Of a stretch of 64,000 nt of DNA, positions 2,894-61,964 are shown in pieces. The number at the start of each line of letters is the position of its first letter. The first letter of the stretch is position 1. The position numbers and the translations under genes are program-made. Under the pieces are notes generated by a model. It saw nothing but the letters and a program-made list of their open reading frames with translations. It was not told where the DNA came from and did not search any database. The stretch is taken from the IMG/VR virus record IMGVR_UViG_3300037067_002413, positions 32,001 through 96,000 of that record; one strand, given 5' to 3'. Source of the stretch: a virus. Lineage: Duplodnaviria; Caudoviricetes.

Positions 2894-3398
2894 CAAAAAC
2901 TGGGCGCGCTGGATTTTCCATTCGGTAGCCAGCCAACTAAAAGAGGTTGCTACTGATGCCAATTTGCCAGTCCTCATCGAACATTTCGACGAGCGCACCG
3001 CCTCTTTCGAGCGTGCGACTGACAAAGCGGAAATCCGCATTACCGGACCTTTCGATCAGGAACTATCGAAGGGTTATCACCGCATCTATGTGGATGTCAA
3101 CGTGTTGCTGACCAGTCGTTACGACGGGGCCAGCAAGAACGCTGCCACCATCCTCAAGAACGCGGGTTTATTCCACGAGGCGATGTCCGAGCCAATTCCG
3201 GTTTACAACTTCGGCGGCGAACCAGGCGATTACGTCGAAGCGGACTCCTCTTCACAAGTGTTTTTGGGTTGCCTTACCCCACGGCCTGGGCGAAACGATA
3301 GTGTGCGAGTTATGAACTTCGGTCAATTGGATAATGTTGACAAAATTAAACAGACCGAAGTTGATGCCCGCTTTGTGATGGAGTTGATTGAACCCTAA
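2883..3398 (+). CDS. Tail terminator / tail completion protein (putative)
   Basis: ATG 2883 after AGGAGG; size and position just upstream of tail tube. Confidence 0.5.
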   Translation: MSANKNWARWIFHSVASQLKEVATDANLPVLIEHFDERTASFERATDKAEIRITGPFDQELSKGYHRIYVDVNVLLTSRYDGASKNAATILKNAGLFHEAMSEPIPVYNFGGEPGDYVEADSSSQVFLGCLTPRPGRNDSVRVMNFGQLDNVDKIKQTEVDARFVMELIEP

Positions 3399-28149: not shown

Positions 28150-28349
28150 TGGGGTGGGCAAGTGGTTCAGAATTGGCAGAGGATGTTTGGAACGTGGTTC
28201 GTCCCCTAATACCAGGAAATAAACGAAAGAACGCTGCGGCCTCAATCGTTGAACTCTTCGAGTATTGCGACTGCGATACTTTGTATGAGGCTGAACAATT
28301 AGTCGCGGATTCTGGTTTGCCAGGATACGCTAGGGAGGATGTCGAATGA
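28149..28349 (+). CDS. Hypothetical protein
   Basis: [10 protein letters not shown]; translationally coupled. Confidence 0.6.
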   Translation: MGWASGSELAEDVWNVVRPLIPGNKRKNAAASIVELFEYCDCDTLYEAEQLVADSGLPGYAREDVE

Positions 28350-28567
28350 ATTTACCAGGAGCAAAACGGTTGACGTTTATGATGCCCAAGGAAGTGGCGG
28401 ATCAGAATACAGAAGACCTTCTCATTATGCTTGAAGGTTTTCCGATGCCAGAACCCGATGAATCAGGCATCATTCAATTCGATTTCGTTGGCAGGGATAT
28501 TTCGTTCCAGCCAATTGTCGATCGCATCATGGGTACGCCAGGCGTCAGCGTGTTTCCAGTATTTTGA
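28346..28567 (+). CDS. Hypothetical protein
   Basis: GGAGG RBS; coupled. Confidence 0.55.
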   Translation: MNLPGAKRLTFMMPKEVADQNTEDLLIMLEGFPMPEPDESGIIQFDFVGRDISFQPIVDRIMGTPGVSVFPVF

Positions 28568-28579
28568 CAAATGGAAAAT

Positions 28580-28652
28580 TGCACTGTAGTTCAGTTGGTA
28601 GAACACCGCACTGTTAATGCGATGGTCCCTGGTTCGAGTCCAGGCGGTGCAG
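28580..28652 (+). tRNA. tRNA-Asn(GTT)
   Basis: TGCACTG/CGGTGCA acceptor, GTTC/GAAC D stem, CTGTTAA anticodon loop, CCTGG-TTCGAGT-CCAGG T arm. Confidence 0.92.
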
Positions 28653-28656
28653 CTTG

Positions 28657-28721
28657 CGTCGGAAAGGATGGGGACTGCGGCTCTAGCCGTGATGGAGTGC
28701 CTCATCCGTCCGACGTTTTTT
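28657..28721 (+). terminator. Long hairpin with T-tract after tRNA-Asn
   Basis: CGTCGGA/TCCGACG plus GGATGGGG/CCTCATCC stems followed by TTTTTT. Confidence 0.5.
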
Positions 28722-28738
28722 CGTCTCCAAAGGTGACT

Positions 28739-29536
28739 ATGGAACGGCTTGCTCGATACGATGTTTATAATGTACCACTTGCTGATATTTGGATTGATCC
28801 AGATTTCAATTGCCGAAATGCCTTTACCTTCCAGTCTGTTAAGGGACTGGCGGATAACATCGAACAAACCGGACTTGAGATTCCAGTTATTCTTCAACGA
28901 CGAGAGGATAGTCAGATAGAATTTTCGGAACCATTCCGTTTGGTTGCCGGTTTTCGTCGTTTGGCAGCCGTGAAGACGTTTCTGCATTGGAATTCTATTC
29001 CTGCTAATGTTCGAGAAAACTTGAATGACCGAGCAGCAGAGATTCTAAATCTAACAGAGAATTTGGAACGCGAAGACCTCAATCCGCTGGAACAGGCACA
29101 AGCACTCACTCGTAGATTTCCGCCTGGAAGTTCGTTACGAACGATCGCTAAGGAGATGCACCGGGACGCGCATTGGGTACACCAACGCCTGCGGATTATG
29201 CAATTGCCAGAGGAGTTGCGTGAGAAGGTAGCGGCTAAGTTGCTCACACTCTTGGACGTAGACGTACTCGTGAAACTTCCACCAGAGGAGCAAATCGAGG
29301 CAGCCAAAGAAATTATTATTGCCAGAGGAAAGCGAACACGAAAACTCAACGTCAATCCGAAATTTCGGCGAAAGTTTAAGTATCGTCGTGGAAAGGAAGA
29401 GATCAATTTTAGAATTGGTCAACTGATGGAGGCGGGATTGAGTGGCCTCGTAACACGATTCGGTGCCTGGTGTGCGGGTTATATCAGTGATGACGAGTTC
29501 GATCAGGATATTTTGCAAGAAACACATAAAATATAG
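28739..29536 (+). CDS. ParB/Srx-domain protein 2
   Basis: LVAGFRRLAA, ENLEREDLNPLEQA, HTH; ATG 28739 after AAGG. Confidence 0.88.
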   Translation: MERLARYDVYNVPLADIWIDPDFNCRNAFTFQSVKGLADNIEQTGLEIPVILQRREDSQIEFSEPFRLVAGFRRLAAVKTFLHWNSIPANVRENLNDRAAEILNLTENLEREDLNPLEQAQALTRRFPPGSSLRTIAKEMHRDAHWVHQRLRIMQLPEELREKVAAKLLTLLDVDVLVKLPPEEQIEAAKEIIIARGKRTRKLNVNPKFRRKFKYRRGKEEINFRIGQLMEAGLSGLVTRFGAWCAGYISDDEFDQDILQETHKI

Positions 29537-29572
29537 ACCAGATTTCACCTATTTTTACGTCGTCCTATTAGA
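29534..29572 (+). promoter_or_regulatory. 39-bp repeated element (putative phage promoter), copy 1
   Basis: TAGACCAGATTTCACCTATTTTTACGTCGTCCTATTAGA identical to 54371-54409; ends at the first nucleotides of the Y RNA array. Confidence 0.7.
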
Positions 29573-29633
29573 GGGCCGATGTGGATGGGTTATCTTGGAA
29601 CGACTCCCCACCCGCACAAACTTGCCCTCTTTT
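29570..29633 (+). ncRNA. Y RNA 1 (free-standing)
   Basis: AGAGGGC-C-GA-TGTGGATGGG-TTATC...CCCACCCGCA-CAAAC-TT-GCCCTCT: bulged-C helix, second stem and UUAUC; upstream of Ro60. Confidence 0.85.
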
Positions 29634-29635
29634 AT

Positions 29636-29760
29636 GGATGCCGTAGTTCAGTTGGTAGAACACTAAAACCGCTGACCAACCTTTGCCCTGCAAGGGCCAA
29701 ATGGAAAGCGTTATCACCTGTTAAGTGAGAGGTCGCGGGTTCGAGTCCCGCCGGTATCCG
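29636..29760 (+). ncRNA. tRNA(Asn-derived)-Y RNA chimera A
   Basis: GGATGCCG/CGGTATCC acceptor, canonical D and T arms, CTGTTAA loop; 50-nt insert 29665-29714 folds as TTT-GCCCT/AGGGC-C-AAA...GCGTTAT(C). Confidence 0.8.
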
Positions 29761-29766
29761 TTTTAT

Positions 29767-29893
29767 GTACGTTGTAGCTCAGCGGTAGAGCACAAGTCAA
29801 AGAACCGCTTTCAAGTTTCTTGCCCTATGGGCCGAACTGAAAGCGTTATCAACAAGGAACTTGTGGTCGTGGGTTCGAGTCCCGCCAACGTGC
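29767..29893 (+). ncRNA. tRNA-Y RNA chimera B
   Basis: GTACGTTG/CAACGTGC acceptor; CAAGT/ACTTG anticodon stem whose loop is replaced by CGCTTTCA..TTGCCC-TAT-GGGC-C-GA..TGAAAGCG-TTATC. Confidence 0.8.
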
Positions 29894-29896
29894 TTT

Positions 29897-29993
29897 GGGT
29901 GTGAAGCTCAATTGGTTGAGCACCCGTTTTCACCATTAACTCGAAAGGGTCGAATGAAAATGGTTATCGTAGGTTCGAGTCCTATCGCACCCG
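29897..29993 (+). ncRNA. tRNA-Y RNA chimera C
   Basis: GGGTGTG/CGCACCC acceptor; anticodon arm replaced by CCGTTTTCA..ACTC-GAAA-GGGT-C-GA..TGAAAATGG; TTATC occupies the variable loop. Confidence 0.75.
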
Positions 29994-29995
29994 CT

Positions 29996-30059
29996 CCGGG
30001 CCGATGCTGATTGGTTATCACATCTTTATTGTCAAACACCAATCGCACACCTTGCCCGG
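29996..30059 (+). ncRNA. Y RNA 2 (free-standing)
   Basis: CCGGGC-C-GA-TGCTGATTGG-TTATC...CCAATCGCA-CACC-TT-GCCCGG. Confidence 0.85.
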
Positions 30060-30066
30060 CAATATA

Positions 30067-30159
30067 CTTGGACCGTGGAAGTTCGTTTATTGACGGCCAT
30101 TTCCGAAGTTGTACTTTAGAAATGGCCGCCCATAACGATTGTCCAACTTTTTGTCCAAG
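30067..30159 (+). ncRNA. Y RNA 3 (free-standing, extended internal hairpin)
   Basis: CTTGGAC-C-G-TGGA...TCCA..T-GTCCAAG; GTTTATT variant; CGGCCATTTC/GAAATGGCCG inner stem. Confidence 0.65.
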
Positions 30160-30168
30160 CCTTGGATA

Positions 30169-30245
30169 TTTGGGCCGTCGCTGAATCCGTTATCTATGTC
30201 ACTCATAATGACTCCAGTATCCCGGACCAGCACCTTTTGCCTGAG
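30169..30245 (+). ncRNA. Y RNA 4 (free-standing)
   Basis: TTTGGGC-C-G..GCTG..TCCG-TTATC...CGGA-C-CAGC-ACCTTTT-GCCTGAG. Confidence 0.75.
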
Positions 30246-30257
30246 TCATTGAATGTG

Positions 30258-30314
30258 TGGGCCGACGTTCGTGGGTTATCAGGCATAAGACACCCACGGC
30301 AATTTTCTAGCCTA
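30258..30314 (+). ncRNA. Y RNA 5 (free-standing)
   Basis: TGGGC-C-GA..TCGTGGG-TTATC...CCCACGG...GCCTA; ends just before the Ro60 RBS. Confidence 0.7.
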
Positions 30315-30329
30315 ACCTTTGGAGAAAAC

Positions 30330-31928
30330 ATGAAGACTTTAGCCAAGCACGTTTCAGTTCGGATTACTCCGCAGACTCGACCGATTCCTGGAAAGAATCA
30401 AGAGCAGAACAACGCAGGTGGGTATACGTTCGTTCTGGATTGTTGGGGACGACTTCAACGGTTTTTGATTCTCGGTTCCGAGGGCGGGACGTATTATGTC
30501 GGCGAACAAAAGTTGACGGAACAAAATGCGTCCGCCGTTGCTGAATGTGGTGAAGAAGACGCGGCCAAAGCCGTGGAGATGATCGCCTCGATCAGCGAAT
30601 CGGGCCGTGCTCCAAAGAATGATTCTGCTATTTTCGCCCTGGCACTTTTGGCGAGTCAGGCGGACGATACTGTTCGACGACTGGCATTGGCTGCGTTGCC
30701 GCGTGTTTGCCGCACGGCTACCCATTTGTTCCAATTCGTTGCGAACTGCAAGGAACTGCGCGGTTGGGGCCGTGGATTGCGTGAGGCGGTCGCCGGCTGG
30801 TACAACGAGAAGCCGGTTGACAAACTCGCCTATCAGGTGACGAAATACAGGAACCGTGCCGGCTACACGCATCGGGATATTCTCCGGCTTAGTCATCCGA
30901 AGACGGGCGATTACGAACGAAACAATCTATACCGTTGGATTACGAAGGGGACTCTCCCAGACGAAATCACGGTTGCGTTTAATCCGTTGGCTTTGATTTT
31001 TGGCTTGGAAGCAGCAAATGCTCTTTTGCCTACCGACGTGAAGGGGATGATCGGACTGATCGAACTTTACGGGTTGACTTTGGAGCATGTGCCCAATCAT
31101 TTCCTTAGCAGCCCGGCTGTATGGGAAGCCTTGCTTCCGAATCTGCCGCCCACGGCAATGATCCGAAATCTGGGTAAGATGACCAGCGTCGGCCTTCTGA
31201 AACCACTATCGGTATCTGCGAATATGGTTTGCAACGTGCTGACCAATCCCGATCGCCTTCGTGGTGCTCGCGTGCATCCACTATCCGTCTTGATTGCCAC
31301 CGACACATACAGTCAAGGCCACGGCGTCAAGGGGTCGCTGACATGGCAGCCGGTGGGACAAATCAGGGACGCCCTTGAGGAAGCATTTTATTCTGCCTTT
31401 GACGCCGTGGAGTTGACGGGTAAACGACATTTGTTGAGTCTGGATGTGTCCGGTTCGATGGGCTGGTCGTTACTTGCCAACACTAGATTGAGTGCTGCCA
31501 AGGCCGCCGCTTGCATGGCGATGGTTACGCATCGACTTGAGCCGCAAACTCATGTGATGGGTTTCTCCAACGATCTGGTTCCGATCGACATTTCCAAGAA
31601 GGAACGTCTCGATGCCTTGGTAACCAAGATTGGTCGTATTCCGATGGGCGGAACTGATTGTAGTCTGCCCATGCTCTACGCGGCTCAACAGAAGTTGGAC
31701 GTGGATGCCTTTGTGGTATACACGGATAACGAGACTTGGGGTGGGAAGATTCACCCCATTCAAGCTCTCAAGATTTACCGTCAAGCGAGCGGCATCAACG
31801 CCAAGTTGATTGTCGTCGGAATGACCGCCAGCCAGTTCACGATCGCCGATCCTTCTGATGCCGGCATGTTGGACGTTGTTGGTTTTGACGCTTCCTGCCC
31901 AGCCGTAATGGCTGATTTCGTTCGTTGA
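30330..31928 (+). CDS. rsr: Ro60 / TROVE-vWA RNA-binding protein (Rsr)
   Basis: NNAGGYTF, RFLILGSEGGTYY, GWGRGLR, KYRNRAGYTHRDILRLSHP, vWA DVSGSM, GGTDCSLPM, YTDNETW, MLDVVGFD; ATG 30330 after GGAGA. Confidence 0.97.
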   Translation: MKTLAKHVSVRITPQTRPIPGKNQEQNNAGGYTFVLDCWGRLQRFLILGSEGGTYYVGEQKLTEQNASAVAECGEEDAAKAVEMIASISESGRAPKNDSAIFALALLASQADDTVRRLALAALPRVCRTATHLFQFVANCKELRGWGRGLREAVAGWYNEKPVDKLAYQVTKYRNRAGYTHRDILRLSHPKTGDYERNNLYRWITKGTLPDEITVAFNPLALIFGLEAANALLPTDVKGMIGLIELYGLTLEHVPNHFLSSPAVWEALLPNLPPTAMIRNLGKMTSVGLLKPLSVSANMVCNVLTNPDRLRGARVHPLSVLIATDTYSQGHGVKGSLTWQPVGQIRDALEEAFYSAFDAVELTGKRHLLSLDVSGSMGWSLLANTRLSAAKAAACMAMVTHRLEPQTHVMGFSNDLVPIDISKKERLDALVTKIGRIPMGGTDCSLPMLYAAQQKLDVDAFVVYTDNETWGGKIHPIQALKIYRQASGINAKLIVVGMTASQFTIADPSDAGMLDVVGFDASCPAVMADFVR

Positions 31929-31932
31929 TTTA

Positions 31933-32066
31933 GCGGGGCTTCGGTGTGTGCAAAAGCACTGAACCTATAACCGCACGGTTGATGACTAGGACTGCCTCAG
32001 CCAGGCTGTAACGGTAACATACGCAATGGCAATGCGAACGCCGTGCGGAATATACCGAAGCCCCGC
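31933..32066 (+). ncRNA. Unassigned structured RNA immediately downstream of Ro60
   Basis: 17-bp closing stem GCGGGGCTTCGGTGTGT / ATATACCGAAGCCCCGC; inner CCGCACGG/CCGTGCGG stem. Confidence 0.55.
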
Positions 32067-32095
32067 GTTTTCTTAGAAGGCGAGTTGCACCGCTG

Positions 32096-32494
32096 ATGTT
32101 TCAACAATATGAAAATGACTTTCAATTTCGTATTAAACTCCCAAATGGGAAATTCATCTATCGGTTGGAAGAGGATGAGGCTGATGCCGTCAAGGAAGCA
32201 ATAGCCCAGAAAAAATCAATTCCGCCACCGAAGTATCGTCGTCTATTGCCGTTTGGCGAAGGCGTCGAAGTTGTGGGCGATCGTATTTTTGCCTACTACA
32301 AAGGTGCTAATCTTGGAATGTTTCCCACGCTCAAGAAAGCCCTCAAGGCTTGGGATGGCGCGGAACGGTACGAGAGGTTTTCTTTGGAGCAGGAAGCCGA
32401 ACAGCAAGCCATTGATAAACGCTACTATTCGGATTTAACTTTTGATGAGAATGGGTACAAGATTTTCAAGCCGAGGCCAGCACCAACACCATGA
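32096..32494 (+). CDS. Hypothetical protein
   Basis: Coupled to polymerase start (ATGA). Confidence 0.6.
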   Translation: MFQQYENDFQFRIKLPNGKFIYRLEEDEADAVKEAIAQKKSIPPPKYRRLLPFGEGVEVVGDRIFAYYKGANLGMFPTLKKALKAWDGAERYERFSLEQEAEQQAIDKRYYSDLTFDENGYKIFKPRPAPTP

Positions 32495-36570: not shown

Positions 36571-37322
36571 ATCTAATGAAACCTAGCGATTCAGTTGGCC
36601 GTGGTGAACCATTTACAATAGAACAGAATGATGAAGTCTACAAGCGTTTAGTCGCTGGTGATATAAAGGCACGCGATGAAATGATGGTAGGCAATGTTGC
36701 CTTAGCGATTTACCGTGTTGAGGCTTATCTACGCGGCGCATCACAGATGTCTTATTATAGGGATGAAATGATTTCGGCCGGCATATTGGGACTTTGCAGT
36801 GCAGTCGAACGTATGCAGAAAAGGGGCATAGTTAAAAATCCGAAACCGACAGGTTGTATCACAAAGGCAATTGATAGGTATATTTCGCATTGTGCGGATG
36901 AGGCCAACACGATTGTCGTATCAAGTCGTGTTCAACAGATGGCAAGAGCGGTAGGTGAACCCATAATTCTGCCACATACGGTGTCGGAAAAGACACTGAT
37001 TAGCGTTGATGATACTTCGATTCGTGATAGGGAAGAAGTATCTGAACTCAAAGAAGAAGCGTTGGCATGTTGCAAGGATGAAGTCGAAAAAACAATTGTA
37101 ACCATGCGAGTAGATGGATATACCGATGCACAAATCGGAAAATCACTTAATCTTGTAAGACGGCGCGTCTCCCGTTTACGACAGGATATTTTTAAGCGTT
37201 TCAATGAACGCTGTCCTGAATACAAAGAAACGGAACGTGCCAAAATCAAAAGACTGACTAAAGAAACCTACGAAAAGGCTAAACGAGCGACAAAGAAATC
37301 CGTCAAGGAGACTGCCAAATGA
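36567..37322 (+). CDS. Sigma70-like factor
   Basis: GDIKARDEMMVGNVALA, DEMISAGILGLCSAVER (region 2); GYTDAQIGKSLNLVRRRVSR (region 4 HTH). Confidence 0.75.
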   Translation: MNLMKPSDSVGRGEPFTIEQNDEVYKRLVAGDIKARDEMMVGNVALAIYRVEAYLRGASQMSYYRDEMISAGILGLCSAVERMQKRGIVKNPKPTGCITKAIDRYISHCADEANTIVVSSRVQQMARAVGEPIILPHTVSEKTLISVDDTSIRDREEVSELKEEALACCKDEVEKTIVTMRVDGYTDAQIGKSLNLVRRRVSRLRQDIFKRFNERCPEYKETERAKIKRLTKETYEKAKRATKKSVKETAK

Positions 37323-37879
37323 TTGACAATGTTCTGCTAGACATAGATGGAGTTTGCAACAGATTTCATTATCATGTCTTCAATCATTTCGGACTTCCGT
37401 ACCATGACGACTCGTATTATCCAGTGGAATGCGGTTGGGATATGGTTGCCGCTGCGAATAAGTTAGCTGGGTGTAATCGGTTTACGACAACCAGTTTTTG
37501 GAAGTCGATTACGCGAGAGGTTTGGGCGACCGCTCCGGTATCCGAGGAATTCGATCTGTTACTCGAATGGTCTAAAGATCAAGTGGGACAGGAACATATC
37601 TTCTTTCTGACCAGTCCGACTCTTGATGCCGATAGTGTCGCCGGGAAACTCGAATGGATTCAACGATGTGCCCCAAAATGGATGCACCGTCAGTACATGA
37701 TTGGCCCGCCGAAGCATTTACTTGCTAGATCGAATGCGTTGCTTTTTGACGACAGCGACAAGAACGTGAAGGCATTTAAGGAACATGACGGCGAGAGCGT
37801 CTTGATTCCTAGACCGTGGAATTCAATGCACGGTAAAAACGTAATTGAATATCTCGAAGAAGTTTTACCTTGGTTCTAA
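37319..37879 (+). CDS. HAD 5'(3')-deoxyribonucleotidase-like protein 1
   Basis: DIDGV, LTSP, K.EW, LFDD, RPWN. Confidence 0.85.
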   Translation: MIDNVLLDIDGVCNRFHYHVFNHFGLPYHDDSYYPVECGWDMVAAANKLAGCNRFTTTSFWKSITREVWATAPVSEEFDLLLEWSKDQVGQEHIFFLTSPTLDADSVAGKLEWIQRCAPKWMHRQYMIGPPKHLLARSNALLFDDSDKNVKAFKEHDGESVLIPRPWNSMHGKNVIEYLEEVLPWF

Positions 37880-38838: not shown

Positions 38839-39837
38839 ATGGATATTAAAGCAGAAGTGTTGATGCGCAACATGCCTGATGACACGTTACTGGAAAATGT
38901 TGAGTATGTACTTAGTAGGGCAGCGGCAGAGTGGCTTGACCTGGATCATCATCCACAGGATTTGGAAGTTCGAGTAAACACGAATGTCCCATTGCTTGGT
39001 CAAGCCTTGAACACGATAGAAAAAGGCGTTGATCTGAGACCGCCCCAGAAGGCTCCGATTTATGCAATCAGCGATTTGCACATGGGGGACGGTGGGCCTC
39101 GTGACAATTTTTCCTATTATGGATTACGCGAGAAGTATCTGATGTCCTTCCTCGATTTTGTTGAGGAGAATAACGGACAACTTGTGATCTGCGGCGACTT
39201 ATTCGAGTTGTGGCAGAGCAATATAAGCAAGGTACTGACGAAACGTATTTGGTTACTCGATCGTCTGGCAAGGATGCAGGCTATCTACATTCTTGGAAAT
39301 CACGACGCCGATCTTCGATATTTCCTTGGACAACCAGGTTGGCTTACGCATCCGTTCTTCGAGCGAATGTGCAACGGTTGTCATCTGAATCTTGGTGGCA
39401 AATCATTCGAGTTTATTCATGGGCACGAGGCTGATCCATATTGCGTCAGTGATACGCCGGGGTTGGGTCGAATAACAGCCATCTATTCTGGACTTGCCGA
39501 AGACCGCAACGGCGGCCCGATGTTCGATGAATATACCACAGTAGAACAGAAGGTAATTGGTCCTCTGGAGCGAGTCGTAAGCGTGTTGAATTGGTTTCGT
39601 GGAAAACCTGACCGATTCACAGAGATCAATCGCAATCTTCGAGACCTTTTGGTATCCGACGTTTTGATTTGCGGGCATACCCACCATCCTGGAAGAATTG
39701 CCGGTTGGCATTACAACTGTGGCACTTGGGCTGAGGAAACGAATAGTTTCCTTTGCATCCAGCGAGACGGCACCGTTGGCGCATTTGATTGGAAAAACAA
39801 TCAGGCAATTCCAAATGATTCGGAGCTTCCGATATGA
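38839..39837 (+). CDS. Calcineurin-like metallophosphoesterase (LpxH-like)
   Basis: ISDLHMG, GDLFE, GNHD, HGH, GHTH. Confidence 0.88.
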   Translation: MDIKAEVLMRNMPDDTLLENVEYVLSRAAAEWLDLDHHPQDLEVRVNTNVPLLGQALNTIEKGVDLRPPQKAPIYAISDLHMGDGGPRDNFSYYGLREKYLMSFLDFVEENNGQLVICGDLFELWQSNISKVLTKRIWLLDRLARMQAIYILGNHDADLRYFLGQPGWLTHPFFERMCNGCHLNLGGKSFEFIHGHEADPYCVSDTPGLGRITAIYSGLAEDRNGGPMFDEYTTVEQKVIGPLERVVSVLNWFRGKPDRFTEINRNLRDLLVSDVLICGHTHHPGRIAGWHYNCGTWAEETNSFLCIQRDGTVGAFDWKNNQAIPNDSELPI

Positions 39838-40121
39838 CGTTGTTTATTCTTGCCGTAATTGGCATGACTCATATTGTCGTTGACAGCGAAATTATGGAAC
39901 CAGTCGAAACTTGGGCAGAGGATTGGCTTCCGTCTAAGTTGCACTATGCCTTGTTCAACTGTTATCAGTGTTCAGGATTCTGGTGCGGCGTGATGCTAGG
40001 ATTGCTGATCGTAAGTTTCAATCCATTTGTTGTGTTTGCCTGTGGATGTGCTGGCAGTTTTCTTGCGGACTTTAGCGAAACCATTTTTCAATCTCTTGAA
40101 GGATTACACCATGCGTCGTGA
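39834..40121 (+). CDS. Membrane protein with CxxC (DUF1360-like)
   Basis: LFNCYQCSGFW between hydrophobic helices. Confidence 0.6.
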   Translation: MTLFILAVIGMTHIVVDSEIMEPVETWAEDWLPSKLHYALFNCYQCSGFWCGVMLGLLIVSFNPFVVFACGCAGSFLADFSETIFQSLEGLHHAS

Positions 40122-41196
40122 GTTTCTCCAACTGGCTGACACTTTCAATCCAGCCAAACATAAGATCGCCGGCTACCTCGTGAGCGAGAAGTTGGACGGA
40201 ACAAGATGCTTTTGGGATGGCGGTCTGAGCCGTGGCGTGAAGACAGAACAAATACCGTGGGCGAGTATCACAGACCCGAAAACAGGTAAGAGAAAATCCA
40301 AACTCAAGCCGCTTGCCACGGGTCTGTGGTCTCGATACGGTAATCCAATCATGGCTCCAGATGATTTTCTGAATGCTCTGCCTTCGTGTCCATTGGACGG
40401 CGAACTGTGGGCTGGTCGTGGGAATTTTCAACTTTGCCGATCAATTTGCGGCGGCGATGAACCTGATCCGCGATTTCACCAAATCACCTATGCGGTTTAC
40501 AGTGCGCCAGCCATTCCTTACGTTTTCGGAACGGGCGAGATCAAAAATACCAATATGGTATGCGATCTCAACTTCGAGGCGATTGAGAAATGGATCACGC
40601 CTCGTCTGGTTCCAGGTTACGGATGGGTCAAGACGCCCGCAACCTTCAATGACGAATTGATGTTTCTCCGCGAATACTTGGAAGTACAAAACGATCGAGT
40701 GTTTGTCCACAAGCAGGTTCGACTACCCGAGAATGAAGAGGAAGCAAGAGCCGTCGTGGACAAGTTCCTTGACAATGTGTTGAGTCAGGGCGGCGAAGGT
40801 TGCGTTATACGAAATCCAATGGCATCCTGGACGCCCAAGAGACACAAGGGATTGCTCAAGTTCAAGCCTTTCAGCGATGCTGAATCGACCGTTACTGGGT
40901 TCACAACCGGCCGTGAGACAGACAAGGGCAGCCGACTTCTTGGAAGAATCGGTGCCTTGATTACGAACTATGACGGCAAACGATTGGAACTTGCTGGTCT
41001 TACGGATGCCGAACGCGAGTTCACAAATCAAGAAGCCGTGGAATGGGCAAGGAGCAATCCGGGGCAAGATGCGCCGGAATGGGTCGATGGCAAACAGTTC
41101 AAGAAGGGTCAGAGCGTTACCTTCAAGTATCGAGAACTTACGGATGACGGGATTCCAAAGGAGGCCCGTTATTGGCGACGAAGGGACGTGGAATGA
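40111..41196 (+). CDS. ATP-dependent DNA ligase
   Basis: SEKLDGTRCFWDG, LDGELW, GGEGCVIR, LLKFK, C-terminal OB fold TFKY..LT..GIP. Confidence 0.92.
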   Translation: MRREFLQLADTFNPAKHKIAGYLVSEKLDGTRCFWDGGLSRGVKTEQIPWASITDPKTGKRKSKLKPLATGLWSRYGNPIMAPDDFLNALPSCPLDGELWAGRGNFQLCRSICGGDEPDPRFHQITYAVYSAPAIPYVFGTGEIKNTNMVCDLNFEAIEKWITPRLVPGYGWVKTPATFNDELMFLREYLEVQNDRVFVHKQVRLPENEEEARAVVDKFLDNVLSQGGEGCVIRNPMASWTPKRHKGLLKFKPFSDAESTVTGFTTGRETDKGSRLLGRIGALITNYDGKRLELAGLTDAEREFTNQEAVEWARSNPGQDAPEWVDGKQFKKGQSVTFKYRELTDDGIPKEARYWRRRDVE

Positions 41197-44092: not shown

Positions 44093-45181
44093 ATGTCTAA
44101 CGTATTTGTTGAATTGACCACGATCGACGAAGTGAAGCCGCATCCTAATGCGACCAAACTGGAAATCGCTGTAATCAAAGGTATCACTACCATCGTCGGC
44201 AAAGACGAGTTCCAGAAGGGTCAACGGGTTGTATTCTTCCCGCCTGGAATCTTGCTGCCGCCTGATATTGCTCAGTTGCTTGGAGTTCAGAAATACCTCA
44301 AGCACGCTGAATTTCCAGGGGATGCAGATCATCCGGCTGGCAAATGCCAGTGTCGAGTTGCAGCGTGCCGGCTTCGAGGTGCGCCAAGTTTTGGCTTTAT
44401 TATTCCTGCTCCATCCACGCTGGACGACACTGCCATTGGAACCGATGTCTCGTGCATGTGGGCAGCCCAAAAGTACGAACCGCCTGCTCGTTATTTCTTT
44501 GGTGATATTATGCCAGAGGACAATAGTTTCCACAAATACACCGACATTGAAAATTATTGGCGGTTCAACAATGCCATCCCTGACGGCACACCAGTACGAA
44601 TCACGGAAAAGATTCATGGAACGAACAGTCGAGTTGGTTTGATCGCCATGTACGACGGTGAGTTCGAGTTCATGGCGGGCAGTCATAAAACTCGCCGGAA
44701 GAAACCTGATGGCGAAAACACGTCCATTTACTGGCGACCGCTGGAAGATCGGTGTGTTCTTGATCTTCTGACGTACCTGTGCGATGAGAAGAATTCAGTG
44801 GTCGTCTTTGGCGAAATCTACGGAGTAGGCGTCCAGGATTTGGATTATGGCACCAAGGAGGGTTACGCGGTCTTTGACATCAGCGTCAACGGCAAATATC
44901 TGAACTGGGATCGGGTGAAAACCTTATGCGATTGGTACGGTGTAAAAACCGTCAATCTTCTTTATGAGGGACCATTCAGCAAAGATTTGGTGCAAGAACA
45001 CACCTATGGACCAACAACCATGATAGCACCCGAATTGATCGCCAGTCCGTTTAAGGGACGTGAAGGGTGCGTCATTACTCCGTTGGTTGAGCAGTTCTAC
45101 GCTCCGACCGGCGGTCGGCTGATTCTGAAAAGCGTCAGTGCTGACTACCTCGATCGGAAAGGTGCTCAGGATAACGAATGA
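44093..45181 (+). CDS. ATP-dependent RNA ligase, DRB0094 family
   Basis: N-terminal OB (I.EV.PHPNATKLE, RLRGAPSFG), TEKIHGTN, FGEIYG.GVQ, FDI, REGCVI, LKSVSADYL. Confidence 0.9.
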   Translation: MSNVFVELTTIDEVKPHPNATKLEIAVIKGITTIVGKDEFQKGQRVVFFPPGILLPPDIAQLLGVQKYLKHAEFPGDADHPAGKCQCRVAACRLRGAPSFGFIIPAPSTLDDTAIGTDVSCMWAAQKYEPPARYFFGDIMPEDNSFHKYTDIENYWRFNNAIPDGTPVRITEKIHGTNSRVGLIAMYDGEFEFMAGSHKTRRKKPDGENTSIYWRPLEDRCVLDLLTYLCDEKNSVVVFGEIYGVGVQDLDYGTKEGYAVFDISVNGKYLNWDRVKTLCDWYGVKTVNLLYEGPFSKDLVQEHTYGPTTMIAPELIASPFKGREGCVITPLVEQFYAPTGGRLILKSVSADYLDRKGAQDNE

Positions 45182-45486
45182 AAACTCAAGACATTTACGA
45201 CGTGTTGAATGGTGAACGCGAGTATCAAAAGCGTAGATGGGGAGAACGTCAACCTGATGGTTCTTTTAGGGAATCAAACCACGAGGTCGGCGAATACCTA
45301 GTCTATATGCAAGATTACCTAACTGCGGGATTTCACGCTTTGACTCACAAGGACGGTAGTTTGGATGCTCTTGATGCCCTCCGCAAGGTAGTTACTCTCG
45401 GCATTGGATGTTTCGAGGAACATGGCATTCGTCGCCGTGATTTGTACTCGACAATCATCAATGCAAGGGATGGGTTGAAAGCATGA
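45178..45486 (+). CDS. Hypothetical protein (all-helical, MazG-like fold possible)
   Basis: EREYQ..RWG...LRKVVTLGIGCFE. Confidence 0.45.
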   Translation: MKTQDIYDVLNGEREYQKRRWGERQPDGSFRESNHEVGEYLVYMQDYLTAGFHALTHKDGSLDALDALRKVVTLGIGCFEEHGIRRRDLYSTIINARDGLKA

Positions 45487-45998
45487 GCAGACAAATCTTC
45501 CTTGATATGGATGGCGTTATCGTGGACTTGCAATGTCCTTTGCAGGAATTGCACCACAGGGACGTGAGTTTGGCGTTCCATCGCCATGAATTGGAGTTGA
45601 CGGACGAACAAATTTGGACTGGCACGGATGCAATTTGGTGGGCACATCTTCCGTGGATGGAGGATGGTCGTGCCATTCTAGCCCTCTGTGAAGATGCAGT
45701 TGGCGTCGAGAACGTAATCCTTTGTTCGACGCCTGCTGCCTGGCCTGGTTCTGCCGAAGGCAAGATTCGTTGGATTGAAGAACAGATGCCTAACTACAAG
45801 AGGCGTTTTATTCTCACTCCAAAGAAAGCATGTTGTGCAAACGCTCGCACGCTCCTGATTGACGATTATGAACGCAACAACGTGGAGTTTCACAACGCAG
45901 GCGGTGCGGCATTACTTTGCCCAAGACCGTGGAATAACAATTCTAATCTCAACACTCTGGATTATTTGAGGGAAGGGATAAAGGAGATGTTGGAATGA
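45483..45998 (+). CDS. HAD 5'(3')-deoxyribonucleotidase-like protein 2
   Basis: DMDGV, STP, GK.RW, LIDD, RPWN; paralog of 37319-37879. Confidence 0.85.
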   Translation: MSRQIFLDMDGVIVDLQCPLQELHHRDVSLAFHRHELELTDEQIWTGTDAIWWAHLPWMEDGRAILALCEDAVGVENVILCSTPAAWPGSAEGKIRWIEEQMPNYKRRFILTPKKACCANARTLLIDDYERNNVEFHNAGGAALLCPRPWNNNSNLNTLDYLREGIKEMLE

Positions 45999-61602: not shown

Positions 61603-61608
61603 GTCGTT

Positions 61609-61706
61609 GTTTCTGTCGTCTAATGGCAAAAAGGCAACCAAAAGAATTATGCCTTTTAGGACACCGGCAGCGGTCGGTGATACAGGTTCGATTCCTGTCG
61701 GAAACA
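61609..61706 (+). ncRNA. Aberrant tRNA-like RNA (hairpin inserted in D loop, 4-nt anticodon loop)
   Basis: GTTTCTG/CGGAAAC acceptor; ACAGG-TTCGATT-CCTGT T arm; AAAAGGCA/TGCCTTTT insert; CCGGC-AGCG-GTCGG. Confidence 0.65.
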
Positions 61707-61885: not shown

Positions 61886-61888
61886 TTT

Positions 61889-61964
61889 GGCCTCGTCTAA
61901 TTCTAAATGGTCAGGATACTGGACCTTCAATCCGGGGATGCGGGTTCGAGTCCCGCCGAGGCTA
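61889..61964 (+). tRNA. tRNA-Glu(TTC), C33 variant with atypical D arm
   Basis: GGCCTCG/CGAGGCT acceptor; CTGGA-CCTTCAA-TCCGG; GCGGG-TTCGAGT-CCCGC. Confidence 0.75.

What the first reader, a model, noticed from the sequence alone, without database searches (positions are those of the whole stretch)
29636..29760. Chimera A is an intact tRNA-Asn with a 50-nt Y module inserted inside the anticodon stem
Seen: removing 29665-29714 restores a perfect CTCAC-CTGTTAA-GTGAG anticodon arm (Asn, GTT). Its 21-nt GTAGTTCAGTTGGTAGAACAC (29643-29663) is identical to the ordinary tRNA-Asn at 28586-28606. Chimera B keeps the anticodon stem but loses the loop. Chimera C fuses the Y stem directly as the anticodon arm, with TTATC as the variable loop. 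Inference: A, B and C look like a graded series showing how tRNA-mimic Y RNAs could arise from a tRNA plus a Y RNA. A may be a Ro60-gated or repair-activated tRNA.
Basis: partly seen in the sequence, partly recalled or inferred. Interest (0 to 1): 0.8.

Follow-up and report, generated by a model that had tools for sequence, protein, structure and literature searches.

The report
tRNA-shaped Y RNA with anticodon arm
Just upstream of a phage's Ro60 gene lies an RNA gene built like a complete asparagine tRNA with an extra 50-base arm, the Ro60 docking hairpin, branching from its anticodon stem; it belongs to a widespread class of Ro60 partner RNAs that I did not find described in print, and it is most likely a tRNA look-alike, not a tRNA awaiting splicing.

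Summary
Removing 29665-29714 leaves a full class I tRNA frame: 7-bp acceptor, D and T arms with all tertiary-contact bases, and the arm CTCAC-CTGTTAA-GTGAG. It is not chance.

In 32 RNAs of this layout, from phage contigs and from bacterial genome contigs (cyanobacteria among them), all but one beside a Ro60 gene, both halves of the split anticodon stem pair and covary. The insert is 48-74 nt (48-59 in all but one) and always fits a break after nt 28.

The loop keeps its tRNA frame (U33 in 61/67, purine 37 in 65/67, A38 in 59/67) while the triplet varies (31 kinds). GTT is kept in the closest relative and is GAT in the next.

The same junction and hairpin occur in ordinary permuted YrlA RNAs, where Chen et al. 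2014 called it the "V" stem-loop.

Best reading (0.7): a tRNA-order YrlA-type Y RNA, with the arm as a permanent Ro60 handle and the tRNA body plus anticodon loop as bait. There is no splicing motif and no RtcB. An RNA ligase is absent from one complete phage that has this RNA. Most copies carry G-1:C73 whatever the anticodon. Serine-type copies lack the long variable arm.

A, B and C are three separately conserved designs, not a caught-in-the-act series. Window A alone has lost the conserved U·G of the docking helix. The scan found this class before on other DNA. There are no RNA data.

The parts
29636..29759 (+). Chimera A: tRNA-order Y RNA, from G(-1) to discriminator C73
   Evidence: Hand parse. 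Best match to model R1 (130.5 bits). ARAGORN -i calls it tRNA-Asn(gtt) i(33,50).
29637..29643 (+). Acceptor stem 5' strand; pairs with 29752-29758
   Evidence: 7/7 paired here. In 33 aligned RNAs the stem is 100% paired and all 7 pairs covary.
29646..29661 (+). D arm (GTTC / AGTTGGTA / GAAC) with A14, G15, G18, G19, A21
   Evidence: Identical to the D arm of tRNA-Asn at 28580-28653.
29663..29664 (+). Anticodon-stem nt 27-28 (CT); pair with 29728-29729 (AG)
   Evidence: Helix 3: 100% paired and both pairs covary (U-A 16, C-G 11, G-C 2, U.G 1 at 28:42).
29665..29714 (+). 50-nt Y arm. Linker AAAAC; stem 2 is CGCT/AGCG plus CCA/TGG. The Ro-type helix is TTTGCCCT (29682-29689) / AGGGC(C)AAA (29693-29701), with bulged C 29698, closed by loop GCA. 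The arm ends in the (G)TTAT linker.
   Evidence: Folds on its own at -15.4 kcal/mol, z -2.4. Homologous arm of 48-74 nt (48-59 in all but L159) in 32 RNAs. Position 29699 is A where 26 of 33 have the G of a U.G wobble.
29715..29729 (+). Anticodon hairpin: 29-31 CAC, loop CTGTTAA (GTT at 29720-29722), 39-43 GTGAG
   Evidence: Unchanged in L001. Helix 8 is 92.9% paired with covariation. Loop statistics.
29730..29751 (+). Variable loop AGGTC (G46, C48) and T arm GCGGG / TTCGAGT / CCCGC
   Evidence: T stem is 100% paired.
29768..29893 (+). Chimera B: tRNA frame with a closed 5-bp anticodon stem; the Y module replaces the loop
   Evidence: Rfam tRNA 45 bits with a 60-nt insert. Orthologs in L001, L002, L003, L006, L012, L023, L029, L042, L051.
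29897..29993 (+). Chimera C: tRNA frame with the Y stem as the anticodon arm and TTATC as the variable loop
   Evidence: Rfam tRNA 43 bits. Fold z -4.25. Orthologs in L003 and L007; same layout in L012 and L015.
29570..29634 (+). Stand-alone Y RNA 1. Others lie at about 29996-30064, 30170-30250 and 30255-30321.
   Evidence: Folds. Sub-threshold matches to the nematode sbRNA family RF01656 and to Y_RNA RF00019.
30330..31928 (+). Ro60 (TROVE + vWA) gene
   Evidence: Pfam vWA_Ro60 6.9e-67, TROVE 6.6e-45. 111 relatives in viral contigs.
28580..28653 (+). Ordinary tRNA-Asn(GTT), same anticodon as A
   Evidence: ARAGORN. Rfam 67 bits. The pairing with an A-type GTT unit is kept in L001.

Best explanation
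Chimera A is a Y RNA, a partner RNA of the phage's own Ro60, built in normal tRNA order. It is a topological isomer of the YrlA class.

Shown: a complete tRNA frame with free, covarying acceptor ends. A 50-nt side arm leaves the 5' strand of the anticodon stem after nt 28 and carries the bulged-C helix and UUAUC motif shared with the stand-alone Y RNAs next to it. Beyond the junction sits an authentic anticodon hairpin whose 3' strand runs uninterrupted into 42-43, so it can stack on the 2-bp stalk as a normal 5-bp stem.

Inferred: the RNA is cut out by RNase P and a 3' end-processing nuclease and receives CCA like a tRNA. M. smegmatis YrlA reaches the same end state through RNase P cleavage. 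The arm stays in place and docks Ro60. The tRNA body, with an Asn-type anticodon loop, is presented as a bait to proteins that read tRNAs. Candidates are modification enzymes, synthetases, and anticodon nucleases of host defence. It is not spliced and does not normally decode.
For: A lies 570 nt upstream of the Ro60 gene, in an array with four stand-alone Y RNAs that share the module.

32 RNAs of this layout were aligned, from phage contigs and from cyanobacterial and other bacterial genomes; 31 are within a few kb of a Ro60 gene. Every helix covaries, including both parts of the split stem: 0 of 500 shuffles reach the observed values, and slid partners give 38-48% paired against 87%.

The arm is kept at 48-74 nt (48-59 in all but one) with conserved junction linkers, (U)AAA(A)C and GUUAU. 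An intron need not keep these.

The same junction and hairpin occur in permuted YrlA units. Their acceptor is a closed hairpin and their ends lie in the Ro stem, so removing the arm could not yield a tRNA. This is the 'V' stem-loop of Chen et al. 2014.

G(-1) plus C73 is present in 22 of 33 whatever the anticodon. GCT (Ser-type) and TAA (Leu-type) copies have 4-5 nt variable loops. So acceptor identity does not follow the anticodon as it does in working tRNAs.

The window and L001 each keep an ordinary tRNA-Asn(GTT) as well. There is no RtcB in this or five related phage records. PF09414 RNA ligase is absent from the complete L077 contig.

Known YrlA is a tRNA mimic bound by Rsr and modified by TruB and DusA. 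M. smegmatis YrlA is cut by RNase P and gets CCA (PMC4201824; 10.1101/312249).
Against: There is no RNA, binding or processing data at all for this RNA; no RNA run holds the stretch.

The anticodon loops look more like real tRNA loops than a mere scaffold would need. G37 goes with G36 (9/15 against 3/52), and C38 goes with GTC, TTC and TCC triplets. This fits decoding or charging as well as mimicry.

Window A has A at 29699, where 26 of 33 aligned RNAs have the G of a U.G wobble beside the bulged C. The published GNCGAA motif also has G there, so Ro60 binding of this particular copy may be weakened.

A closed Ro helix has not been shown to bind Ro60.
Confidence: 0.7

Rival explanations
1. A is a working tRNA that keeps its extra arm. 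It is charged (with Asn, or with His through G-1:C73) and decodes AAY, possibly with Ro60 riding on it or blocking it.
For: The tRNA core and free acceptor ends are complete. The anticodon loops of the class follow tRNA rules: U33, R37, and 36-37 and C38 correlations. In the few copies without G-1:C73, the discriminator often fits the anticodon: TCC/U73, TGT/A73, TAA/A73, GTT/G73.
Against: The arm leaves the stem at 28/29, beside base pairs 29-41 and 30-40. From my knowledge of ribosome structures, not tested here, the 30S P site contacts these pairs. C73 with a GTT anticodon does not fit the bacterial Asn identity set (G73; my knowledge). Ser-type and Leu-type copies lack long variable arms. 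Permuted relatives with closed acceptors carry the same hairpin. An ordinary tRNA-Asn is kept alongside.
Confidence: 0.1
2. A is a precursor. The Y arm is cut out and the two halves, held as a nicked duplex on the continuous 39-43 strand, are sealed by the phage's nick-sealing RNA ligase to give tRNA-Asn.
For: Clean removal of 50 nt restores a perfect arm. The phage has a PF09414 RNA ligase with an N-terminal OB domain at 44093-45181 and a metallophosphoesterase at 38839-39837. L001 and L002 also have the ligase.
Against: No bulge-helix-bulge motif is seen at the junctions, and 50 nt is too short for a group I intron. No RtcB is present. The complete L077 phage has an A-type RNA but no PF09414 ligase. 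The arm is conserved in length, structure and motifs like a functional part. The ligase lies 14 kb away. No endonuclease is known for such a site in bacteria.
Confidence: 0.06
3. The real RNA is a canonical permuted YrlA read across two units: the 3' half of A (from 29693) plus the 5' half of B (to about 29829), with the A-B spacer as the acceptor-like loop.
For: Rfam YrlA matches 29693-29829 at 28.7 bits. By hand reading, A's GAAAGCG can pair with B's CGCTTTC (7 bp), and the two acceptor strands can pair 6 of 8 with three G.U.
Against: The score is far below the gathering score of 69. B's nt 27-28 (CA) do not both pair with A's AG. The in-unit acceptor stems are 7/7 here and 100% paired with covariation in 33 RNAs. 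Several of those RNAs stand alone with no following unit (L034, L067). Chen et al. warned that tandem tRNA-like genes give false YrlA matches of this kind.
Confidence: 0.06
4. A is a decaying tRNA-Asn copy hit by a chance insertion, with no function.
For: It duplicates the anticodon of a nearby ordinary tRNA-Asn. Its docking helix carries an unusual base.
Against: The ortholog in L001 carries compensatory changes in the D and T stems and an untouched anticodon arm. 32 homologous RNAs covary in every helix.
Confidence: 0.02

Closest known systems
YrlA (Y RNA-like A; Rfam RF02553; Chen et al. 2014, PMC4201824; structure in Wang et al. 2018, 10.1101/312249)
   Same: It is encoded beside Ro60/rsr. 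It has a Ro-docking helix with a GNCGAA-type 5' strand plus a tRNA-like D arm, T arm and acceptor. Some members have a 'V' stem-loop before the T arm, which here proves to be the same hairpin at the same junction. M. smegmatis YrlA is opened by RNase P and receives CCA, which gives the same end architecture.
   Different: YrlA is circularly permuted: T arm before D arm, ends in the Ro stem, and an acceptor closed by a loop. It is described as lacking a free CCA end and an anticodon loop. A has tRNA order, open acceptor ends, a loop-closed Ro helix and a full 5-bp/7-nt anticodon arm. The Rfam model does not detect it as a unit.
D. radiodurans Yrn1 (Chen et al. 2013, 2014)
   Same: It is a Y RNA with both strands of the Ro helix conserved. 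It has a tRNA-like part in the other orientation, modelled with an 'anticodon arm' of 5 bp.
   Different: Yrn1 has its ends in the Ro stem, a 6-nt loop, no clear D arm and no acceptor ends.
Intron-containing tRNAs (archaeal BHB introns at non-canonical sites; bacterial group I introns in anticodon loops)
   Same: A gene finder with introns allowed reports A as tRNA-Asn with a 50-nt intron.
   Different: There is no BHB motif and no group I core. The site is inside the stem at 28/29. The insert is conserved as a Ro-type module and also occurs in RNAs that cannot become tRNAs.
Vertebrate Y RNAs and nematode sbRNAs (RF00019, RF01656)
   Same: They share the bulged-C helix GGNCCGA/UUGNCC followed by a second stem and UUAUC. 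The neighbouring stand-alone units match these families weakly.
   Different: Those RNAs have free ends in the stem and no tRNA body.
Other tRNA mimics with free acceptor ends (tmRNA, plant-virus TLS)
   Same: They have an L-shaped tRNA-like body with a chargeable end fused to a second functional module.
   Different: They have a different partner (SmpB or replicase) and no canonical anticodon loop next to a protein-docking arm.

Membership tests
Canonical decoding tRNA (Rfam RF00005) | 7-bp acceptor, D arm with G18G19, T arm GTTCRA, tertiary-pair bases | tested here: met
   Read: U8, A14, G15:C48, G18G19, A21, G22/G46, T54-C56, A58, C61. Acceptor is 7/7.
Canonical decoding tRNA (Rfam RF00005) | Uninterrupted 5-bp anticodon stem with a 7-nt loop | tested here: not met
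   The loop and all five pairs are present, but a 50-nt arm interrupts the 5' strand after nt 28.
Canonical decoding tRNA (Rfam RF00005) | Reaches the family's gathering score or is found by a tRNA finder | tested here: not met
   No RF00005 match for A even at E<=10. ARAGORN by default misses it. Only the intron mode finds it.
Canonical decoding tRNA (Rfam RF00005) | Aminoacylation and decoding | not testable with these tools
   C73 with G-1 does not fit the bacterial Asn identity set (my knowledge).
YrlA (RF02553) | Encoded next to Ro60/rsr | tested here: met
   A ends 570 nt before the Ro60 ATG. 31 of 32 homologs lie beside a Ro60 gene.
YrlA (RF02553) | GNCGAAN0-1G Ro-contact motif | tested here: inconclusive
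   Window A reads GCCAAAUG, with A in place of the G. L001 A reads GCCGAAG. The U.G at this place is kept in 26 of 33.
YrlA (RF02553) | Permuted order: Ro 5' strand, T arm, closed acceptor-like hairpin, D arm, Ro 3' strand | tested here: not met
   A has tRNA order, with open acceptor ends and a Ro helix closed by a GCA loop.
YrlA (RF02553) | Rfam gathering score (69 bits) | tested here: not met
   28.7 bits, and the match spans the A/B boundary.
YrlA (RF02553) | Binds Rsr/Ro60 | not testable with these tools
   No RNA or binding data; no RNA run holds the stretch.
tRNA with a protein-spliced (BHB) or group I intron | Bulge-helix-bulge at the two junctions, or a group I catalytic core | tested here: not met
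   The junctions lie in a three-way junction with 5-nt and 4-nt linkers. No intron family matched in Rfam at E<=10. The insert is only 50 nt.
tRNA with a protein-spliced (BHB) or group I intron | A spliced product exists | not testable with these tools
   No RNA run holds the stretch.

The most novel reading that the evidence does not exclude
Ro60 partner RNAs come with a programmable tRNA identity. Each tRNA-order or permuted unit displays a genuine anticodon loop of a chosen isoacceptor (Asn here). The chargeable tRNA-order forms use it to bring Ro60 to enzymes that read that anticodon. In phages this would be a decoy or sensor for host anticodon nucleases that cut those same tRNAs.
Probability: 0.2. 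Interest if true: 0.85.

Novelty: new variant of a known kind. Interest (0 to 1): 0.62.

Why it matters
Y RNAs are thought to tether Ro60 to an effector, but the partner of the tRNA-like YrlA domain is unknown. This RNA and its relatives have three things the published description says YrlA lacks: open acceptor ends, and so a possible CCA end, plus a real anticodon loop.

The anticodon triplet varies between copies, while the loop frame and its 36-37 and 38 correlations follow tRNA rules. That narrows the search for the effector to proteins that read anticodon loops or acceptor ends. It also makes the question testable with defined RNAs: Asn-, Ile-, Thr-, Pro-type and others.

The result re-reads the published 'V' stem-loop as an anticodon arm. 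It also explains why gene finders report odd 'intron-containing tRNAs' beside Ro60 genes.

Tried and rejected
- RNA evidence: no RNA holder is listed for 29540-30340. Only DNA metagenome runs (landfill, groundwater) hold it.
- Promoter and terminator scan of 28300-32200 gave nothing above the shuffles.
- The MAFFT alignment of 13 A-type RNAs (A1) misaligned the arm. It was used only as a seed for model R1. The model-fitted alignment A3 was used for pair counts, so those counts lean towards the model.
- The apparent A-type in L014/L022 was a mis-parse of two tandem permuted units and was dropped.
- My automatic topology calls for permuted units were rough. They were replaced by hand reading and by a D-arm search with a permutation control.
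- Papers: the Annual Review (PMC10870794) and the Microbiology Spectrum review (PMC6047535) are not held, and the supplements of Chen 2014 are not held. A description of tRNA-order forms there cannot be excluded.
- Five literature searches found no paper that describes this layout.
- Rejected: the RtcB-based repair idea, because no RtcB is present.
- Rejected: the 21-nt D-arm identity as proof of parentage, because it is not shared by L001.

Full report
WHAT IS THERE

The window is part of a 145,969-bp virus record, judged complete. At 30330-31928 it encodes a Ro60 protein with TROVE and Ro60-type vWA domains. The 760 bp before it hold four stand-alone Y-like RNAs and three tRNA-shaped units, A, B and C.

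There is a 7-bp acceptor (29637-29643 with 29752-29758) and a D arm (29646-29661). A26 and C27-T28 follow, then 50 nt (29665-29714). After the insert come CAC, the loop CTGTTAA and GTGAG (29715-29729), the variable loop AGGTC, and a T arm with GTTCGAG. All bases that make the tertiary contacts of a class I tRNA are in place.

The insert folds by itself. It forms a 4+3-bp stem and a helix TTTGCCCT/AGGGC(C)AAA with one bulged C, closed by GCA. That helix is the Ro-type helix of the neighbouring free Y RNAs, wired the other way round. It is followed by the shared (G)UUAUC.

Standard finders miss A.

IS IT MORE THAN CHANCE?

A search with the Ro60 protein gave 80 viral loci.

The closest, L001 (80% Ro60 identity), has the same array. 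Its copy of A differs at 17 of 123 positions, several of them compensatory in the D and T stems. The 26 nt from AGCGTTATC through the anticodon arm are unchanged.

The next, L002 (72%), has the insert at the same place. Its arm is CC|CCG CTGATAA CGGGG, so the stem has changed on both strands and the triplet is GAT.

A covariance model built on 13 such RNAs was used together with two Ro60-blind pattern scans of viral and cellular genomes. These led to 32 RNAs of this layout in phage contigs and in bacterial genome contigs: Nostocales and other cyanobacterial records, Kofleriaceae MAGs, and two untitled loci. All but one lie next to a Ro60 gene.

On the model-fitted alignment:
- the acceptor stem is 100% paired, and all seven pairs covary;
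- pairs 27:43 and 28:42 are 100% paired, and both covary;
- pairs 29-31/39-41 are 92.9% paired, with covariation;
- no shuffle of 500 reaches the observed values;
- sliding the partners drops pairing from 87% to 38-48%.

Two checks that do not lean on the model agree:
- A 3-bp/7-nt hairpin right after GTTAYY is present in 67 of 138 distinct units, against 7.5% of shuffles.
- Once that hairpin fixes the register, nt 27-28 pair with 42-43 in 14 of 16 tRNA-order units, against about 14% expected.

The insert is 48-74 nt (48-59 in all but L159) and always fits a break after nt 28.

THE LOOP

Across the 67 hairpins:
- position 33 is T in 61;
- position 37 is a purine in 65;
- position 38 is A in 59;
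- position 32 is C in 46;
- positions 34-36 show 31 different triplets.

G37 goes with G36 (9 of 15, against 3 of 52 otherwise). C38 appears with GTC, TTC and TCC. These are habits of real tRNA loops. For the triplet it holds only beyond the closest relative.

RELATION TO KNOWN Y RNAS

Published YrlA RNAs are circularly permuted tRNA mimics. Their order is Ro 5' strand, T arm, a closed acceptor-like hairpin, D arm, then Ro 3' strand. They are described as lacking a free CCA end and an anticodon loop.

Reading related loci by hand showed permuted units that carry the very same junction. After the D arm come N26, two bases that pair with 42-43, then (U)AAA(A)C and stem 2. After GUUAUC comes the 3-bp/7-nt hairpin (L009, L075, L048, L049, L014 and L286). 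A D-arm search found this in 31 of 51 permuted units, against 18.2 +/- 2.3 in a permutation control.

[quoted passage not shown] Two facts argue for an anticodon arm instead. Its 3' strand runs without a break into 42-43, and a normal 4-5-nt variable loop follows it.

Chen et al. also discarded matches that overlapped tandem tRNA genes. That would have removed tRNA-order units.

I found no paper describing the tRNA-order form, but two reviews and the supplements are not held. Earlier notes of this scan report the same class on other DNA, in cyanobacteria, phages and giant viruses, with the same conclusion.

HOW IT MOST LIKELY WORKS

Shown: the anatomy and its conservation.

Inferred: A is released and given CCA like a tRNA. 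The arm stays and docks Ro60. The tRNA body with its Asn-type loop is the effector-binding module.

Reasons to prefer a permanent arm over an intron:
- The arm is conserved in length, fold and motifs.
- The junction is a three-way junction, not a bulge-helix-bulge, and no intron family matches.
- The same hairpin sits in permuted RNAs that could never become tRNAs.
- RtcB is absent from this and five related records.
- The phage's RNA ligase (PF09414 with an N-terminal OB domain, 44093-45181) is 14 kb away.
- That ligase family is missing from the complete L077 phage, which has an A-type RNA.

Reasons to doubt ordinary decoding:
- G(-1) and C73 occur in 22 of 33 RNAs whatever the anticodon.
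- GCT and TAA copies have short variable loops.
- An ordinary tRNA-Asn(GTT) is kept beside A in both the window and L001.
- The arm leaves the stem next to pairs that, from my knowledge of ribosome structures, the 30S P site contacts.

A caveat specific to this copy: position 29699 is A. In 26 of 33 aligned RNAs this place holds the G of a U.G wobble beside the bulged C, and the published Ro-contact motif also has G there. Its Ro60 affinity may therefore differ.

THE OTHER CLAIMS

B has a closed 5-bp anticodon stem around the module. C has the module stem as its anticodon arm and TTATC as its variable loop. Both are as described.

Each type has orthologs in other phages. The three are therefore parallel, maintained designs, not stages of one process.

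The 21-nt identity between A and tRNA-Asn is real. It is not shared by L001, where the two D stems differ from each other and from the window's. It points at most to a recent exchange between the two genes.

The Rfam YrlA match across the A/B boundary scores 28.7 bits against a threshold of 69. It reflects the homology of neighbouring units. In-unit acceptor pairing, and stand-alone A-type genes in L034 and L067, argue against that register.

VERDICT

A is a tRNA-order member of the YrlA-like Y RNAs with a complete anticodon arm. This is a new variant of a known kind and, within the papers I could search, undescribed. Function and processing remain untested.

Noticed in passing
window 29636 and 29759; 29767 and 29893; alignment A3: G(-1) and C73, which could make an 8-bp acceptor as in bacterial tRNA-His, occur in A and B here. 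They occur in 22 of 33 aligned tRNA-order units from phage contigs and bacterial genome contigs (cyanobacteria among them), whatever the anticodon.
   Followed up: partly
window 29699 (alignment A3 columns 64/113): A U.G wobble next to the bulged C of the docking helix is kept in 26 of 33 RNAs. Window A is the only one with U-A.
   Followed up: partly
window 29570-29634, 29996-30064, 30255-30321: The stand-alone Y units read GGGCCGA-N-GGGUUAUC ... CUUGCCC. They match the nematode sbRNA family RF01656 (27.2 bits) and Y_RNA RF00019 (19.5 bits) below threshold, so they look animal-type rather than YrlA-type.
   Followed up: no
window 61608-61706 and 61888-61964: Two further tRNA-like matches. One is 99 nt with a 46-nt middle part: model R1 scores it 34 bits, and ARAGORN -i calls it tRNA-Gly with an intron. 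The other is a weak Rfam tRNA hit at 61892-61961.
   Followed up: no
window 28655-28722: A long hairpin (GCGTCGGA...TCCGACG) followed by a run of T lies directly after the ordinary tRNA-Asn. It is listed in part as terminator-like.
   Followed up: no
window 38839-39837, 40027-41196, 44093-45181, 37319-37879, 45483-45998: Nucleic-acid end-processing genes are scattered downstream of Ro60. They are a metallophosphoesterase, an ATP-dependent DNA ligase, an RNA ligase (PF09414 with a PHA02142 OB domain) and two NT5C-type nucleotidases.
   Followed up: partly
L286:2975-3100 (genome contigs locus beside a Ro60 gene): A permuted YrlA-type unit carries exactly the anticodon arm of window A (CT ... CAC CTGTTAA GTGAG), with CT after its D arm. 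The same arm therefore exists in both topologies.
   Followed up: partly
L238:3049-3360 and L250 (reverse strand, 2900-3350 of the printed view): Nostocales chromosomes have two or three tandem tRNA-order units directly upstream of their Ro60 gene. Each is preceded by ATG and ends in C73. This may explain why Chen et al. found few YrlA RNAs in cyanobacteria.
   Followed up: partly
L006:3751-3837: A B-type ortholog has lost the Ro hairpin. It keeps only a 20-nt loop with GCGTTATCAAGGAA inside the closed anticodon stem.
   Followed up: no
genome C1:15011-15086 (outside the window): ARAGORN reports a tRNA-Cys with the odd anticodon ACA on the minus strand.
   Followed up: no
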